A DNA stretch of 64,000 nt from Candidatus Omnitrophota bacterium (GCA_043814605.1 JBDRJV010000013.1:34471-98470); one strand, 5' to 3'. Shown: positions 33,712 to 42,938, numbered from the stretch's first letter. Made by a program: numbers and translations. Notes: generated by a model from the sequence alone, not told the origin.

Positions 33712-33860
33712 TATTCTGATTCCCACTCGGACTCGGCGCCTCCGCCTACGCAGAAGCTCCGGCTCCGGTCGGCCAGTCAACCGCTGACAGCCGGTCTTCG
33801 ACTTACGGCCTTTTCCTCCCTTAGGTCGGCGCGGTCTCAATTCGAGTCCTCACAGCAGTG
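33712..33860. repeat. GC-rich ~145-bp repeat Z (copy of 42215..42357), ends with tRNA-Asn T-arm-like ttcgagtcctc
   Basis: cgctcggactcggcgcctccgcctacgcag...ggtcggcgcggtctcaattcgagtcctcacagca ~93% identical between copies. Confidence 0.8.
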
Positions 33861-34128
33861 AAAACCAAACAATAATAAAAAACCCCTCACATTTCTGTGA
33901 GAGGTTTTTTATTATTGGCTCCCCGTGCCCCCTAAAAGACCGAACTTTTCTGTGATTTTTTACGCAGGACTTACACTTTCACGACAAGGAAATAGGTTTA
34001 AGGTAGTCTTTCCAACCGAATAAGATTATGATTAAATGTAAATTTTTAAAAGGTTTTTATTGAAATTGCTTTCAGTAAGGTAGACATCCTTTCTGATGTC
34101 CTTTTATTTTTATACATAGATACGTCAT

Positions 34129-36999
34129 CTAACTCTGCTTATGCATGTCTATACCTTGCATAAGTTCATACGCTATATTTCCACTCACCAAACGCATAAT
34201 ACTTTCTTCCGAACTGCCAAAACTTAGTAAATTAATACTGCCATACCAAACAATCTTTTGATCTATAACCGCAAATTTCTGATGTATCTTCGGCCGGAAC
34301 ATGATAGTAATCCCGACAGCTTGAAGTACTTTGCATGCCTGTTGTGACGCTAATCTATTGTCTTCTTTTAACTCCTCGGCTGGTCTCGTTATTATTGTAA
34401 TTCCAACCTGTCTGGTTAAGGGATCAGAGAGATTTTGCATAATTTGATTAACCCGTCGCTGAGTAATAAAAGGACTCACAATTACAATTTCTTTTTTTGC
34501 ACTTATTAAGTCATTGCAATAAACAGGGAAAAATGAGCTCTTATCAAAAATAATATCAGTAGTTTGCCCAATACTTTCCCCTTGAGACTTATACCCGATA
34601 GCAGCATAACCAGTTAATCTTTTAGCATACATTTTCTCAAGCATTCTAACTCTGACATCAACATAATCGTAAATTTGAACATGTTTTTTAGTCTCATATA
34701 TTCTATGCAGTCTTCCCGCGTATTGATGCAAAGTTCCTTTCCATGAAATAGGCATAGCAAGAAACAATGTATCCAATCGAGGAGCATCAAACCCTTCTCC
34801 AATAAACGTACCTGTTGCAACTATGGTTAACTGCTTTTCCTGAGACATTGCGGCTATCCGCCTCAATAAGTCATTTGTTTCTTTAGCCCCTAAGCCCCCT
34901 CTCAATACGACAACATCAGGAATTTTCATTGCCAATTTTTTTGCCAGCAGTTCCACATGTGCTGTCCGTCCTGTAAGTACCACGCAATTCCGGCCATTTT
35001 CATAACTATTAATCACATCATCAACAATCAATTGATTGCGCATTTCATCAACTGTCATCTCAGCGTATAATTCTTGAATAGATACTGTTGTATCATCAGA
35101 GGCCGCGATCCTGAAACCGGTGAATCGTGGGATAACGTAATGCTCGAAAGGCCTTTGTTCCGCTTGTTTTTTTGCGTCAACTTTATAACGGATCGGCCCG
35201 CAATGCATAAATAGTATAGGCTGGTGACCATCCTGTCTTGTAGGAGTTGCCGTTAAGCCATACACATATTTAGCGTTCACCTTTTTAAGTATCTGCTCAA
35301 AACTGAATGCCGGAATATGATGGCACTCATCAACAATGACCATTCCGTAGTTTTTGACAGTTTCCTTTACCTCTCCAGCATCATTTAGTGACTGCATTAT
35401 GGCAATATCAATAATACCCGACAGAGCATCTCTTCCTCCGCCCAATTGGCCAATAACACTTTGTTTTTTCTTTCTCCCTCTCTTTTTTTCTGGAACAGGT
35501 AATTTTTCATCAATGATTAAGAACTCCAGCAACCGGACAATCCATTGTAATAATAACTGATGGCGATGAACTAAAATAAGCGTGTTTACTTTTCGCTCGG
35601 CAATCAGCTTAGCGGCAATAACTGTTTTACCAAACGCTGTCGTTGCGGAAAGAATCCCGTTATTGAATTTCAGGAGCTCATCAACTGCTTGCTGTTGCTC
35701 TTCCTTTAAGACTCCTTTGAATTTAACCTTAATATCCTTTCCGCGATTAGTCTGATCATCCCAACACATTTCCACAGCATACTCATTAAGTAAAACATTA
35801 ATATCCTCCTCGCAACCTCTCGGCAAACACAAATAATTATTCTTATCTTCAAAACATGAGATTACTCGCGGTTTATTATAGGTAGGCATTCTCATTGCTT
35901 GAGCTTTGTAAAATTCCGGATTTCTAAAAGCAGATAACCTTTTCAAAGCATTTAAGGCGCGCGAAGAAAATCCCTCTTTATTAATATACAGCATGTCTGC
36001 TTTTACAATAACCGTCTGCTTAGGATGGCCTGCTTTGGTCAATCTGATCCTGTTTTTCAACCACGGCTTTTCTTCATCTTCAGCTTCTCTAAGCACGCCC
36101 AATTCATTACCCGCGCAAAGTTTACTTATGAATGATTCTACGGTATCTCCTGAGAGCTTCTTTATCAAGGACAAAAATCCCCATTGATCTTCATAGGGGT
36201 TAAATTTCTCATCAATAAAAATACTGTGACCGGCTTTCCTGGCATCCAGTTGAAGTGGAAGTGCGATTAAATTTCCCATACCGCCTTTCGGCATTGTATC
36301 TTGATTTGGGAAAAACCTGTCATATGATGCAAAGGCTATTTCATGGCGTTTATTCATCGCATAGGTGATCACTGCGCTGCCAAATTTTCTGGCCAGTGCT
36401 GCAGGCAGGCACTCTTCAAAAAGAAACCACACATGCGCGCCATTTCCTGATCGTGAACGTTCTACCGCCATGGGAATATTGAATTCTCGACAAACTTCTC
36501 TTACTACCGAAACATCCTTCTCCCATCCGGTATCATCAAAATCAATCACCAGAAAATAACAATTTTCATCTGGAAGCAGCGGATAAATGCCGATAACCAG
36601 ACCGCCTCGCAAATGATTTTCAATGGCCTGCGCATCTAATTGTGCGTACAATTTATATTCACAATCTGCACACCTGGTCTTTGGTTTACCACATATTACT
36701 CTTTGCCATTCATTCAAACAGACCGGAGAATATCCTGACCTTCCCGCTTTATTCTGCCAGCGCTTAGCATATACATCATCACGGCCTCTAAATAAACTGC
36801 GAAATAACTGTATTTTTTCATTATTTGATAGCTGTTGAGAAATCAAAGGATTTTTTACAATAGTTGGCGAAGTAGGGGGCAGGCTTGATAGCTTTTTAAT
36901 AAGCTTATGTTTCTTTTCTTTTAACGATGAAATCTGAGTATCAATATCATTTATTTCATTTACAATATTCTTCTTGATATCGTCATAACTATAATTCAT
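34129..36999 (-). CDS. Three-domain fusion: N-terminal AEP primase-polymerase (PrimPol)-like domain + SF2 helicase (ResIII/DEAH) + C-terminal PLD-family nuclease
   Basis: AEP motif I LVIDFDD, motif II SGNGAHVWFLF, Zn-finger C..C...C..C; helicase Walker A ATTAFGKTV and VIVDECHH; PLD HxK motif KIHQKFAVID..GSINL. Confidence 0.65.
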   Translation of the reverse strand: MNYSYDDIKKNIVNEINDIDTQISSLKEKKHKLIKKLSSLPPTSPTIVKNPLISQQLSNNEKIQLFRSLFRGRDDVYAKRWQNKAGRSGYSPVCLNEWQRVICGKPKTRCADCEYKLYAQLDAQAIENHLRGGLVIGIYPLLPDENCYFLVIDFDDTGWEKDVSVVREVCREFNIPMAVERSRSGNGAHVWFLFEECLPAALARKFGSAVITYAMNKRHEIAFASYDRFFPNQDTMPKGGMGNLIALPLQLDARKAGHSIFIDEKFNPYEDQWGFLSLIKKLSGDTVESFISKLCAGNELGVLREAEDEEKPWLKNRIRLTKAGHPKQTVIVKADMLYINKEGFSSRALNALKRLSAFRNPEFYKAQAMRMPTYNKPRVISCFEDKNNYLCLPRGCEEDINVLLNEYAVEMCWDDQTNRGKDIKVKFKGVLKEEQQQAVDELLKFNNGILSATTAFGKTVIAAKLIAERKVNTLILVHRHQLLLQWIVRLLEFLIIDEKLPVPEKKRGRKKKQSVIGQLGGGRDALSGIIDIAIMQSLNDAGEVKETVKNYGMVIVDECHHIPAFSFEQILKKVNAKYVYGLTATPTRQDGHQPILFMHCGPIRYKVDAKKQAEQRPFEHYVIPRFTGFRIAASDDTTVSIQELYAEMTVDEMRNQLIVDDVINSYENGRNCVVLTGRTAHVELLAKKLAMKIPDVVVLRGGLGAKETNDLLRRIAAMSQEKQLTIVATGTFIGEGFDAPRLDTLFLAMPISWKGTLHQYAGRLHRIYETKKHVQIYDYVDVRVRMLEKMYAKRLTGYAAIGYKSQGESIGQTTDIIFDKSSFFPVYCNDLISAKKEIVIVSPFITQRRVNQIMQNLSDPLTRQVGITIITRPAEELKEDNRLASQQACKVLQAVGITIMFRPKIHQKFAVIDQKIVWYGSINLLSFGSSEESIMRLVSGNIAYELMQGIDMHKQS

Positions 37000-37008
37000 A
37001 ATTTAAAG

Positions 37009-42214: not shown

Positions 42215-42357
42215 TTTCCGCTCGGACTCGGCGCCTCCACCTACGCAGGAGCTCCGGCTCCGGTCGGCCACTCGCCCGCTTACGGCCGGTCTTCGACTTA
42301 CGGCCTTTTCCTCCCTTGGGTCGGCGCGGTCTCAATTCGAGTCCTCACAGCATGGGG
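42215..42357. repeat. GC-rich repeat Z copy 2, inside an ~800-bp GC-rich non-coding tract (42100..42900)
   Basis: See 33712..33860. Confidence 0.8.
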
Positions 42358-42367
42358 TAAAAAAATA

Positions 42368-42403
42368 GGGAGTCCGAATGGACTCCCTTATTTTTTTGGC
42401 TCC
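42368..42403. terminator. Terminator hairpin gggagtcc-gaat-ggactccc + T-run followed by TGGCTCC (same hairpin as 50568..50590)
   Basis: Seen directly. Confidence 0.6.
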
Positions 42404-42938
42404 GCTTCCAGAGATAACTCAAACTGTTTTGAAATCATTTTACCCAATACAATTCACGGGAATAGGAAAAAGAATCTTTGATCTTGCCCCGCCCCGTACC
42501 ACTCGCTGTCGCTCGGGTACGGGGCTGCTTGGGTGATAAATTCGACCGTTCGCCTCAGCTGGGGCCTCGGCTTACTGCTTCGGTCGCTGGGCCGCTCCCT
42601 GGGAGTAATTAGCTACTACGATGAGGCTGCGGTCTACTGCTTGTGTGTGGTGAAAGAAGTGGGCGAGGGCAGTATCCCCGCGTCCTCGCCCGAGCAACAG
42701 CCCAGAAATTTTCATTTTTTTTGAAACGCCGCCGCCATTTTTTTAGGTTTTTGGGTGTGTTGACCTGTTCGCTCGGTCTCGTTCGCACCTTGGCTTTCTT
42801 TTGCAGTTTCCTATTCCCGCGCCGCCAAGGCTGCCTCAGCTGCTAAAACTACACGCGGCTCGCACGCGTTCGGCATCTGTCTCCCCGAGATCAGTCGCCT
42901 TCCGCACTGCTTGCCGTTCTCATTAAATAATGAATATT

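What the first reader, a model, noticed from the sequence alone, without database searches (positions are those of the whole stretch)
33712..42900. Scattered tRNA-Asn 3'-end fragments and a GC-rich ~800-bp non-coding tract suggest serial island integration at tRNA-Asn
Fragments matching the tRNA-Asn T-arm/acceptor (GAGGTTCGAGTCCTCGCG) occur at 33835-33855 and 42335-42357 in plus orientation. They occur at 40357-40370, 42160-42171 and 50381-50394 in minus orientation, the latter set matching the real gene at 50611-50625. The 145-bp Z repeat is present at 33712 and 42215. The tract 42100-42900 is strongly GC-rich, has only short unsupported ORFs and carries the same terminator hairpin as the tRNA-Asn terminator followed by a truncated TGGCTCC. 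No integrase is present in the window. The pattern is what repeated tRNA-targeted integrations followed by decay would leave, with the 33.3-50.6 kb region as a composite island.
Basis: partly seen in the sequence, partly recalled or inferred. Interest (0 to 1): 0.6.

Follow-up and report, generated by a model that had tools for sequence, protein, structure and literature searches.

The report
Genomic-island array behind a tRNA-Asn gene
About 30 kb downstream of an intron-split tRNA-Asn gene in this Omnitrophota genome is a stack of integrase-less defence and stress gene cassettes, each still ending in a copy of the tRNA's 3' tip; this is an ordinary kind of tRNA-targeted island build-up, though its GC-rich junction pieces form a conserved folded element that is not in Rfam.

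Summary

- **The tRNA gene.** tRNA-Asn(GUU) is real, but a 572-nt group I intron carrying an HNH gene splits it at position 35/36. ARAGORN misses it.
- **The junctions.** Ten sites of G(G)AGCCA plus terminator lie downstream, all on the tRNA strand, between 20.87 and 50.6 kb. None lies elsewhere in the window.
- **Relatives.** Gene order is shared up to the tRNA and breaks exactly there. In 31 of 65 sampled loci a large serine recombinase sits right after the tRNA.
- **A moved cassette.** Contig L065 has the window's MNT/HEPN cassette (93% nt identity) directly after tRNA-Asn, flanked by a 20-nt repeat of the tRNA end. L065 lacks about 8.6 kb and about 17 kb that are present here.
- **No recombinase.** The window itself encodes none.

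The best reading is tandem accretion of now integrase-less islands. The close precedent is the Dehalococcoides ssrA islands.

The GC-rich tracts are not random debris. Z (two copies) and X (two copies) belong to a conserved, apparently folded element that ends in the tRNA's 3' tail. G and D are other recurrent junction arms. Whether Z and X act as RNAs is open.

Interest is moderate to low.

The parts
51213..51247 (-). tRNA-Asn(GUU) 5' exon, positions 1-35 (TCCCCTGTAGCTCAGTTGGTAGAGCGATTGGCTGT)
   Evidence: Read directly. 97-100% identical to the 5' halves of ARAGORN-called tRNA-Asn genes in L001 and L003.
50641..51212 (-). Group I intron inserted at anticodon-loop position 35/36, carrying an HNH endonuclease ORF (50875-51192)
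   Evidence: Rfam RF00028, 72.3 bits, E 2e-16. Pfam HNH. The 5' exon ends in U and the intron ends in G.
50600..50640 (-). tRNA-Asn 3' exon, positions 36-76 (TAACCAATTTGTCCGAGGTTCGAGTCCTCGCGGGGGAGCCA)
   Evidence: 100% identical to L003 over 42 nt.
50558..50599 (-). Terminator 'b' after the tRNA (GGGAGTCC..GGACTCCC, then a T run)
   Evidence: The same flank follows tRNA-Asn in L001.
50321..50553 (-). X1: GC-rich structured element ending in the displaced tRNA fragment GAGTCCTCGCG-[41-nt hairpin]-GGGGAGCCA
   Evidence: Repeat with X2. Fold z-score -5.5. The flank after it matches the tRNA-Asn flank of L113 at 91%.
42397..42592 (-). G element: conserved part of the GC-rich tract (GC-rich sequence continues to about 42900), ending in TGGAAGCGGAGCCA
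   Evidence: 88% identical to L005 17083-17282, 77-79% to L006 and L065. No Rfam match.
42360..42396 (.). Bidirectional terminator, a copy of the tRNA's terminator 'b'
42211..42348 (-). Z2: member of the conserved Z element family (5' AGGACTCGAA ... GGAGGAAAAGGCC ... GCCGAGTCCGAGCGG 3')
   Evidence: Covariance model R1, 93 bits. Alignment with metagenomic members.
42159..42170 (-). Displaced tRNA-Asn fragment GAGTCCTCGCGG in tRNA orientation
42000..42008 (-). Degenerate copy of the tRNA end (GGGGAATC for GGGGAGCC) at the tRNA-proximal edge of the MNT/HEPN cassette
   Evidence: The window-L065 alignment runs into the last bases of L065's tRNA-Asn (sequences).
40534..41999 (+). MNT/HEPN (PADLOC PDC-M05A/B) cassette with its own terminator (41930-41958, minus strand) and operator-like promoter region
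   Evidence: 92.8% nt identity over 1,488 nt with L065, where it directly follows tRNA-Asn. Pfam and PADLOC hits.
40319..40544 (-). X2: second copy of X, ending in GAGTCCTCGCG-[41 nt]-GAGGAGCCA and then a terminator
   Evidence: The minimum-energy fold closes with AGGACUC/GAGUCCU as in the Z family, z-score -5.0.
38892..38994 (-). D-type junction (GCGAAACTCGTCC...hairpin...ACGGGGAGCCA) plus terminator
   Evidence: The same junction arm occurs in L077 and L124.
33870..33962 (-). Junction ...GTTCGGTCTTTTAGGGGGCACGGGGAGCCA plus terminator 'a'
   Evidence: The left arm matches L109 3595-3639 at 82%.
33716..33853 (-). Z1: second window copy of the Z element
   Evidence: Model R1, 97 bits. 93% identical to Z2.
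30531..30724 (-). D-type junction (D7b plus D3b) ending in ACAGGGAGCCA, followed by a terminator at about 30480-30530
28920..29023 (-). D-type junction (D3a) ending in ACGGGGAGCCA, plus terminator 'a'
20784..20976 (-). Outermost junction: D7a arm, then GAGCCA, then a flank homologous to the tRNA-Asn flank and serine-recombinase 3' end of L004/L005
   Evidence: (tblastn E 5e-7).

Best explanation
**What it is.** The minus-strand stretch from tRNA-Asn (50.6 kb) down to about 20.9 kb is a tandem accretion array of genomic-island modules that entered by site-specific recombination at the 3' end of tRNA-Asn.

**How it forms.**
- Each incoming element supplies a replacement tRNA 3' end plus a terminator.
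- It pushes the previous 3' end outward.
- Every module boundary therefore keeps a direct copy of the tRNA tip followed by a terminator. The copy ranges from the 6-9 nt G(G)AGCCA up to the 12-21 nt stretch from T-loop to CCA.

**Who does it.**
- In relatives the recombinase found at this site is a large serine recombinase, encoded on the opposite strand right next to the tRNA.
- In this genome all recombinase genes have been lost. The modules are integrase-less remnants of the cis-mobilizable-element kind.

**Cargo.** AbiE, a MazG-like protein, a Schlafen-type helicase, MNT/HEPN, a PrimPol-helicase-PLD fusion, and further out oxidative-stress and signalling genes.

**The GC-rich tracts.** They are the conserved island-end arms next to the junctions (families X/Z, G and D). 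X and Z share a closing helix between an antisense T-arm motif and the sense tRNA fragment.

**Shown versus inferred.** Shown: the junction pattern, the homology of the junction arms to tRNA-Asn flanks elsewhere, the recombinases in relatives, and cassette presence or absence between genomes. Inferred: that those recombinases moved these particular modules, and the order of events.
For: **Where the sites lie**
- Ten G(G)AGCCA-plus-terminator sites lie on the tRNA strand, only between 20.87 and 50.6 kb.
- In 129 other loci such sites are 31 in 327 kb downstream of tRNA-Asn against 2 in 506 kb upstream.

**Synteny and recombinases**
- Synteny with Omnitrophota MAGs ends exactly at the tRNA.
- A large serine recombinase lies right after tRNA-Asn on the antisense strand in L003-L007 and in two IMG/VR viral contigs. 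The same holds for 31 of 65 loci with at least 1.5 kb of downstream sequence.

**Junction arms recur elsewhere**
- Sequences downstream of the window's junctions match sequences that directly follow tRNA-Asn in other genomes: 50605 and 42402 with L001, 50326 with L113, 40324 with L008, 38940 with L002, 20872 with L004/L005.
- Sequences upstream of the junctions recur at junctions in other arrays: G in L005, L006 and L065; D in L077 and L124.

**A cassette that has moved**
- The MNT/HEPN cassette is 93% nt and 96% aa identical between the window and L065, although RecR is only 69% identical.
- In L065 it sits directly after tRNA-Asn between 20-nt direct repeats. In L111 and L124 it also directly follows the tRNA.

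**Precedent**
- Dehalococcoides ssrA islands form tandem arrays with 20-bp repeats, insert in the T-loop, have a roughly 540-aa serine recombinase on the reverse strand next to attL, and include integrase-less members (PMC3146451).
Against: - No recombinase, excised circle or intact attP was observed for any module in this genome.
- None of the relatives' arrays that show several junctions (L065, L077, L124, L136) has a recombinase in the sequence available. The link between serine recombinases and the small cassettes is therefore indirect.
- Serine recombinases do not normally leave 20-nt direct repeats. They also do not accept attL as a new target, so repeated insertion needs either attP sites that carry a long tRNA copy or several different recombinases.
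- X1/X2 (96-99%) and Z1/Z2 (93%) are so similar that some modules may have arisen by internal duplication rather than separate integrations.
- The far boundary could not be confirmed. Relatives share no synteny around the cNMP-binding gene at 20.3-20.8 kb.
- Conserved folding of Z/X is not required by a simple recombination-site role.
Confidence: 0.75

Rival explanations
1. X and Z (and perhaps G and D) are functional small RNAs, transcribed in the tRNA direction. Their 3' tail copies the tRNA-Asn acceptor strand plus GCCA. One possible role is as decoys or sensors for the neighbouring toxins that act on tRNA 3' ends (AbiEii/MenT-type nucleotidyltransferase, HEPN RNase). This reading does not exclude the island-array reading.
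For: **Z family structure**
- 88% of cells paired against 79% in shuffles, covariation score 0.317 against 0.161 (0 of 500 shuffles reach it), and at most 48% paired when partners are slid.
- Compensatory changes occur in P2 and P4.

**X copies**
- X1 and X2 differ by replacement of one hairpin with a different, shorter hairpin.
- They also differ by two substitutions that give G-U pairs on the tRNA-sense strand.
- Fold z-scores are -5.5 and -5.0.

**Context**
- Each element is followed by a terminator.
- X1 lies just upstream of AbiEi/Eii, and X2 is divergent from MNT/HEPN.
Against: - There are no expression data and no clear promoter. The best match upstream of X2 on the minus strand scores 9 of 12.
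- In L065 the same cassette has an AT-rich 110-nt stretch where the window has the X body.
- Z occurs next to varied cargo (a P-loop-kinase-like ORF that I judged zeta-toxin-like by eye, BrnT/BrnA-like ORFs, membrane proteins) or next to nothing obvious.
- The tRNA-like tail is explained by the att repeat.
- Only 8 distinct Z sequences are available, and they are related. One A-C mismatch favours the opposite strand.
Confidence: 0.3
2. The array is a dedicated, integron-like cassette-capture platform anchored at tRNA-Asn. The folded junction elements would play the role of attC sites, and the tRNA end the role of attI.
For: - The cassettes are small, with one or two genes, are often toxin-antitoxin or defence genes, and share one orientation.
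- Each ends in a conserved junction motif plus the GGAGCCA core.
- An integrase-less 1.5-kb cassette has moved between genomes and sits in a tRNA-Asn array in both.
- The junction elements fold.
Against: - No IntI-type tyrosine recombinase is present, and there is no fixed recombinase gene on the far side of the anchor.
- The serine recombinases lie inside the inserted DNA.
- Several modules are large and multi-gene.
- The junction arms fall into unrelated families.
- By inspection there is no GTTRRRY-type core.
Confidence: 0.1
3. The repeats come mainly from segmental duplication and homologous recombination within the region, not from separate integration events.
For: - X1/X2 are 96-99% identical and Z1/Z2 93% identical, at about 10 and 8.5 kb spacing.
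- L136 shows a perfect 1,538-bp tandem duplication of such a unit.
- L005 has an inverted duplicate of the tRNA flank.
Against: - The cargo between the repeats is entirely different from module to module.
- The junction flanks match different foreign genomes.
- Cassette presence or absence between genomes coincides with tRNA-end repeats.
Confidence: 0.1
4. The motifs are a genome-wide intergenic repeat of the REP or MITE kind that happens to include a terminator, with no connection to tRNA-Asn.
For: D-type units sit at the ends of ordinary-looking operons (GGDEF, DsrE/ArsP).
Against: - No such unit lies in 1-20 kb or 51-64 kb of the window.
- In other loci the density is about 24-fold higher downstream than upstream of tRNA-Asn.
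- The unit shares its core with the tRNA end.
Confidence: 0.05

Closest known systems
Dehalococcoides ssrA-specific genomic islands (McMurdie et al. 2011, PMC3146451)
   Same: - Tandem islands lie downstream of a single tRNA-like gene.
- Each is bounded by about 20 nt of the gene's 3' end in direct orientation.
- The inferred insertion point is in the T-loop.
- A serine recombinase of about 500-570 aa sits on the reverse strand next to attL.
- Extra conserved sequence lies just upstream of each repeat.
- Many islands lack an integration module and are interpreted as cis-mobilizable elements.
   Different: - The target is tRNA-Asn, not tmRNA, and the host is Omnitrophota.
- This window keeps no recombinase at all.
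- Many junctions retain only G(G)AGCCA.
- The conserved sequence upstream of the repeat is a folded element of 120-235 nt rather than a 15-bp motif.
- The cargo is defence and stress genes, not dehalogenases.
tDNA-targeted genomic islands in general (Islander definition, PMC4383910); asn-tRNA islands of enterobacteria (own knowledge)
   Same: The island restores the split tRNA gene. A displaced 3' fragment marks the far end (abstract).
   Different: Those islands are mostly driven by tyrosine integrases. Here the recombinases seen in relatives are large serine recombinases.
Cis-mobilizable elements and tandem accretion (Pavlovic et al. 2004, as cited in PMC3146451)
   Same: The modules are integrase-less, are flanked by att-type repeats, and are stacked at one site.
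   Different: Mobility in trans is not shown here. Several att copies are degenerate.
Group I intron at position 35/36 of tRNA-Asn with an HNH gene (Nakagawa et al. 2026, PMC13011429)
   Same: Same tRNA, same insertion point, same endonuclease family, and the same failure of standard tRNA finders.
   Different: That paper reports such introns as enriched in Patescibacteria and rare elsewhere, based on complete genomes. This one is in Omnitrophota, and 69 of 128 sampled genes with this 3' half are interrupted.
Integron attC sites and CALIN arrays
   Same: Arrays of small co-oriented cassettes, often toxin-antitoxin genes, with each cassette ending in a folded element plus a short conserved core.
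   Different: There is no IntI, no attC sequence signature, the anchor is a tRNA gene, and the recombinases lie inside the inserted DNA.

Membership tests
tRNA-gene-targeted genomic island (Islander-type) | Complete, regenerated tRNA gene at one end | tested here: met
   Both exons of tRNA-Asn(GUU) are intact and join to a 76-nt tRNA matching ARAGORN-called homologues.
tRNA-gene-targeted genomic island (Islander-type) | Displaced 3' fragment of the same tRNA in direct orientation at the far end | tested here: met
   GAGTCCTCGCG..GGGGAGCCA at 50380-50321 and 40378-40319; GAGTCCTCGCGG at 42170-42159; G(G)AGCCA at seven further junctions. All are on the tRNA strand.
tRNA-gene-targeted genomic island (Islander-type) | Integrase gene inside the island, next to the tRNA | tested here: not met
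   No recombinase in the window. The feature is met in relatives: L003-L007, L026, L027, and 31 of 65 loci.
tRNA-gene-targeted genomic island (Islander-type) | Island absent from related genomes (empty or differently filled site) | tested here: met
   Synteny stops at the tRNA in L001-L009. L065 goes from the tRNA straight to the MNT/HEPN cassette and then to the homologue of window 22399-22950.
Serine-recombinase tandem islands (Dehalococcoides ssrA-GI type) | Insertion point in the T-loop, with a direct repeat of about 20 nt | tested here: met
   Identity to the tRNA begins between GGTTCG and AGTCC in L001, L052, L065, L124 and window X. Other junctions share only the last 6-9 nt.
Serine-recombinase tandem islands (Dehalococcoides ssrA-GI type) | The recombinase catalyses integration and excision at these sites | not testable with these tools
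   Needs a recombination assay or detection of excised circles.
Integron / CALIN | IntI tyrosine recombinase and attC sites with a GTTRRRY core | tested here: not met
   No tyrosine recombinase by Pfam. The conserved core is GGAGCCA. No attC-specific model was run.
Group I intron in tRNA-Asn at 35/36 | Group I core, U at the end of the 5' exon, G at the intron end, insertion between anticodon positions 35 and 36 | tested here: met
   RF00028, 72 bits over the full model. ...CTGT|intron...G|TAACC restores the loop CUGUUAA. Self-splicing was not tested.
Any Rfam family (for X, Z, G, D) | Match to a curated covariance model | tested here: not met
   Only the intron scores in the window at gathering threshold. 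In 33-52 kb at E up to 1, the only other match is a weak, spurious mir-55 match on the tRNA terminator.

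The most novel reading that the evidence does not exclude
X and Z are a new class of folded element. A closing helix pairs an antisense T-arm motif with a sense tRNA-Asn fragment, and a free CGCGGGGGAGCCA tail follows. The element could actively mark mini-cassettes for capture at tRNA-Asn, giving a tRNA-anchored analogue of integron attC sites served in trans by serine recombinases. 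Alternatively it could act as an RNA mimic of the tRNA 3' end for the adjacent toxins that target that end.
Probability: 0.12. Interest if true: 0.8.

Novelty: new member of a known kind. Interest (0 to 1): 0.4.

Why it matters
- It documents tRNA-Asn as a heavily used landing site for serine-recombinase islands in Omnitrophota and similar uncultured lineages. About half of the sampled loci carry a recombinase there.
- It shows how defence and toxin-antitoxin cassettes pile up there after the recombinases are lost.
- Annotation pipelines will miss both the anchor tRNA, because of the intron, and the island boundaries.
- The Z/X element is a candidate new structured motif. It would be worth an expression test and a covariation test on a larger sample.

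Tried and rejected
- **TOTE and tRNA.** The Pfam name AEP-TOTE on the 956-aa protein suggested a tRNA link. TOTE stands for TPR, OB, TBP, Effector and has nothing to do with tRNA.
- **GC-rich tracts as known RNAs** (RNase P, tmRNA, SRP, 6S, ribozymes, GOLLD/ROOL). Rfam gave nothing at gathering threshold or at E up to 1.
- **GC-rich tracts as recombinase pseudogenes.** tblastn with four serine recombinases hit only 20784-20873 and the antisense strand of the tRNA exons.
- **G element in viral contigs.** No match.
- **Far boundary.** I tried to fix it through the cNMP-binding gene at 20296-20796. Homologues are common in Omnitrophota, but their neighbourhoods are unrelated on both sides and contain no tRNA.
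- **Exact-sequence look-up of RecR.** Not on record.
- **Z as a leader for one gene family.** The genes downstream of Z differ from locus to locus.
- **X/Z as true T-arm or acceptor minihelices.** No 5' strand complementary to CGGGGGA is present (by reading).

Full report
**What the window is.** RecR at 52305-52910 is 72-78% identical to RecR of Candidatus Omnitrophota MAGs. The cNMP-binding protein at 20296-20796 matches a protein from a 111,642-bp Omnitrophota MAG contig at 100% identity over the aligned 89% of the query. GC content is about 35%, and almost all genes lie on the minus strand.

**The anchor gene.**
- ARAGORN finds no tRNA in the window. Rfam finds a complete group I intron at 50649-50926 on the minus strand, scoring 72 bits.
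- Reading the sequence gives a tRNA-Asn(GUU) split at anticodon-loop position 35/36. The 5' exon is 51247-51213, the intron is 51212-50641 with an HNH ORF at 50875-51192, and the 3' exon is 50640-50600.
- Among close relatives, L001, L005 and L008 have the uninterrupted gene. L002, L003, L004 and L006 have the intron.
- This intron type was described in 2026 for Patescibacteria (PMC13011429).

**Checking the observation.**
- All listed fragments exist. Two coordinates are about 10 nt off.
- A T-arm/acceptor 14-mer with up to 3 mismatches matches 9 times against 1.3 expected.
- GGAGCCA occurs 9 times on the minus strand and once on the plus strand.
- Eight of the nine minus-strand copies are followed at once by an intrinsic terminator. 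A tenth site (GAGCCA) with the same layout lies at 20872.
- All these sites lie between 20.87 and 50.6 kb, and none lies in 1-20 kb or 51-64 kb.
- The Z repeat (93%) is real, and so is a second repeat, X (96-99%).
- The 42.0-42.9 kb tract is 50% GC.
- No recombinase is encoded in the window.

**Relatives.**
- Gene order Na/Ca exchanger-dnaX-recR-membrane protein-tRNA-Asn is shared with L001-L009. It ends exactly at the tRNA.
- A large serine recombinase (Resolvase, Recombinase and Zn_ribbon_recom domains) lies right after the tRNA on the opposite strand in L003-L007. The open reading frame runs antisense into the tRNA 3' half.
- The same arrangement occurs in two IMG/VR viral contigs.
- A metagenome scan with the 31-nt tRNA 3' end returned 120 loci. 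Of the 65 loci in the pooled set (these plus the genome and viral loci fetched earlier) with at least 1.5 kb of downstream sequence, 31 carry such a recombinase.
- Across all loci, GGAGCCA-plus-terminator units number 31 in 327 kb downstream of the tRNA and 2 in 506 kb upstream.

**Junction anatomy.** At each window junction, the sequence after G(G)AGCCA matches what directly follows tRNA-Asn in some other genome:

| Window junction | Matching tRNA-Asn flank |
|---|---|
| 50605 and 42402 | L001 |
| 50326 | L113 (91%) |
| 40324 | L008 |
| 38940 | L002 |
| 20872 | L004/L005, including a remnant of the recombinase 3' end |

The sequence before the core falls into a few families:
- the tRNA itself;
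- X, at 50326 and 40324;
- G, at 42402, also found in L005, L006 and L065;
- D, at 20872, 28969, 30536 and 38940, also found in L077 and L124 (a similar arm occurs in L136);
- one further arm, at 33921, shared with L109.

This is the pattern expected if every junction joins the far arm of one inserted element to the near arm of the next.

**A cassette caught in two states.**
- Window 40534-42008 (MNT/HEPN, PADLOC PDC-M05A/B) is 92.8% identical over 1,488 nt to L065. The proteins are 96% identical, while RecR is only 69% identical.
- In L065 the cassette starts immediately after tRNA-Asn. It ends at GAGTCCTCGCGGGGGGAGCCA plus a terminator, which is a 20-nt direct repeat of the tRNA end.
- The next L065 gene is the homologue of window 22399-22950.
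- Relative to L065, the window therefore carries about 8.6 kb between the tRNA and this cassette, and about 17 kb beyond it.
- In the window the cassette's near edge keeps a degenerate core (GGGGAATC, 42008-42001). Its far edge is X2.
- L111 and L124 also have MNT/HEPN directly after the tRNA. L109 has AbiEi/Eii, and L124 and L077 have the DsrE gene, in their arrays.

**The GC-rich tract and the 'fragments'.**
- The tract 42.0-42.9 kb consists of the G arm (42397-42592, with more GC-rich sequence up to about 42900), a copy of the tRNA terminator, Z2, and further short att-like pieces (42170-42159; TCCGAGCGG at 42105 and 42060).
- Z is not debris. A covariance model built from Z1, Z2 and four metagenomic sequences finds nine strong members.
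- Outside the window, every strong member sits just after the terminator of tRNA-Asn. Most end in CCGAGTCCTCGCGGGGGAGCCA plus a second terminator; in L033, as in the window's Z copies, that end is altered.
- The shared layout is 5' AGGACUCGAA, a conserved GGAGGAAAAGGCC, two or three internal helices, and a closing helix AGGACUCG/CGAGUCCU.
- On 8 distinct sequences, 88% of cells pair against 79% in shuffles. The covariation score is 0.317 against 0.161 (0 of 500 shuffles reach it). Slid controls pair at 48% or less.
- X has the same ends and the same closing helix. X1 and X2 differ by one hairpin swapped for another, and by two changes that give G-U pairs.
- None of these elements matches Rfam.

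**Comparison with known systems.**
- The closest precedent is the Dehalococcoides ssrA islands. They form tandem arrays with 20-bp repeats of the gene's 3' end and insert in the T-loop. A roughly 540-aa serine recombinase lies on the reverse strand next to attL, extra conservation lies just upstream of each repeat, and 15 islands lack integration genes and are read as cis-mobilizable elements (PMC3146451).
- The general logic of tRNA-gene islands is standard (PMC4383910).
- The case here differs in target, host, complete loss of recombinases, the short core at many junctions, and the long folded junction arms.

**What remains uncertain.**
- The tie between serine recombinases and the small cassettes is indirect. 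None of the multi-junction arrays in relatives shows a recombinase in the available sequence.
- Serine recombinases are not expected to leave long repeats or to re-use attL.
- Some modules may be internal duplications.
- The outer boundary near 20.9 kb rests on junction motifs only.
- Whether X and Z work as RNA, as folded DNA, or simply as conserved island ends is open.

**Verdict.** This is a new member of a known kind. Interest is moderate to low, and the Z/X element and the widespread tRNA-Asn intron are the parts worth following up.

Noticed in passing
window 50600-51247 (-); loci L002-L147: The tRNA-Asn gene is invisible to ARAGORN because of a group I intron with an HNH gene at position 35/36. 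Among 128 sampled genes sharing this 3' half, 69 are interrupted at exactly this point. That is far more than 'rare outside Patescibacteria' would suggest. About 20 of these loci carry an HNH ORF 60-73% identical to the window's.
   Followed up: partly
L001 12268-12499; L033 about 4650-4990 (-): A different GC-rich element of about 230 nt follows tRNA-Asn in L001 and L033. One hairpin is rebuilt with different sequence (AGGAGGGAAGA..UCUCUCCU against AGGGAAAAACA..UGUUUUCCCU). In L001 a closing helix CCCGCGAGG/CCUCGCGGG pairs with the tRNA-like tail. This may be a second structured junction family.
   Followed up: partly
L005 11650-11920 and 16838-17101: The tRNA flank plus the 3' end of the serine recombinase gene is duplicated in inverted orientation about 5 kb away and joined to the G element. 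The recombinase, HTH, TIR and 811-aa genes thus lie between inverted repeats, which may form an invertible segment.
   Followed up: no
L026 14486-14527; L027 121-168: The serine recombinase reading frames end with residues (WLPREDSNLGPGG) encoded by the antisense strand of the tRNA-Asn 3' half. Integration would therefore change the C-terminus of the recombinase.
   Followed up: no
window 50329-50369 and 40327-40367 (-): A 41-nt hairpin (CCTGTGCCCATGCCTGTTTTGAGAATCAAAACTATGGGTAG) is inserted inside the tRNA-derived core of both X copies, between GAGTCCTCGCG and G(G/A)GGAGCCA.
   Followed up: no
window 40545-40624: The MNT/HEPN promoter region holds two copies of an inverted-repeat box (ATTGTAACC...ATTACAAT) overlapping the best promoter match in the region (TTGACA-17-TACAAT). 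The boxes are conserved in L065 and L124 and are probably the antitoxin's operator.
   Followed up: no
window 34129-36999 (-): A 956-aa fusion of an AEP primase-polymerase (Pfam AEP-TOTE, E 1e-100), a superfamily-2 helicase and a PLD nuclease lies next to a Schlafen AlbA_2/HATPase_c_4 protein. This is a candidate defence pair that I could not assign to a named system.
   Followed up: partly
window 24994-27183 (-): The catalase-peroxidase gene lies in a 49% GC stretch of a 35% GC genome, between array junctions, together with AhpC, rubrerythrin and Fur genes. It was probably acquired horizontally as an oxidative-stress module.
   Followed up: no
window 29114-30132 (-): Two overlapping ORFs (29114-29848 and 29644-30132) both match the first half of the ArsP_1 permease profile. 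This looks like a duplicated or frameshifted permease gene.
   Followed up: no
L136, 182-3076 nt downstream of its tRNA-Asn: A perfect tandem duplication of a 1,538-bp unit: terminator, Z, tRNA-end core, terminator, a P-loop-kinase-like ORF that I judged zeta-toxin-like by eye, a membrane protein, GGAGCCA.
   Followed up: partly
window 3124-3248 / 4506-4630 and 5837-5923 / 7463-7549: Further direct repeats (86% and 72% identical) outside the array. They were not examined.
   Followed up: no
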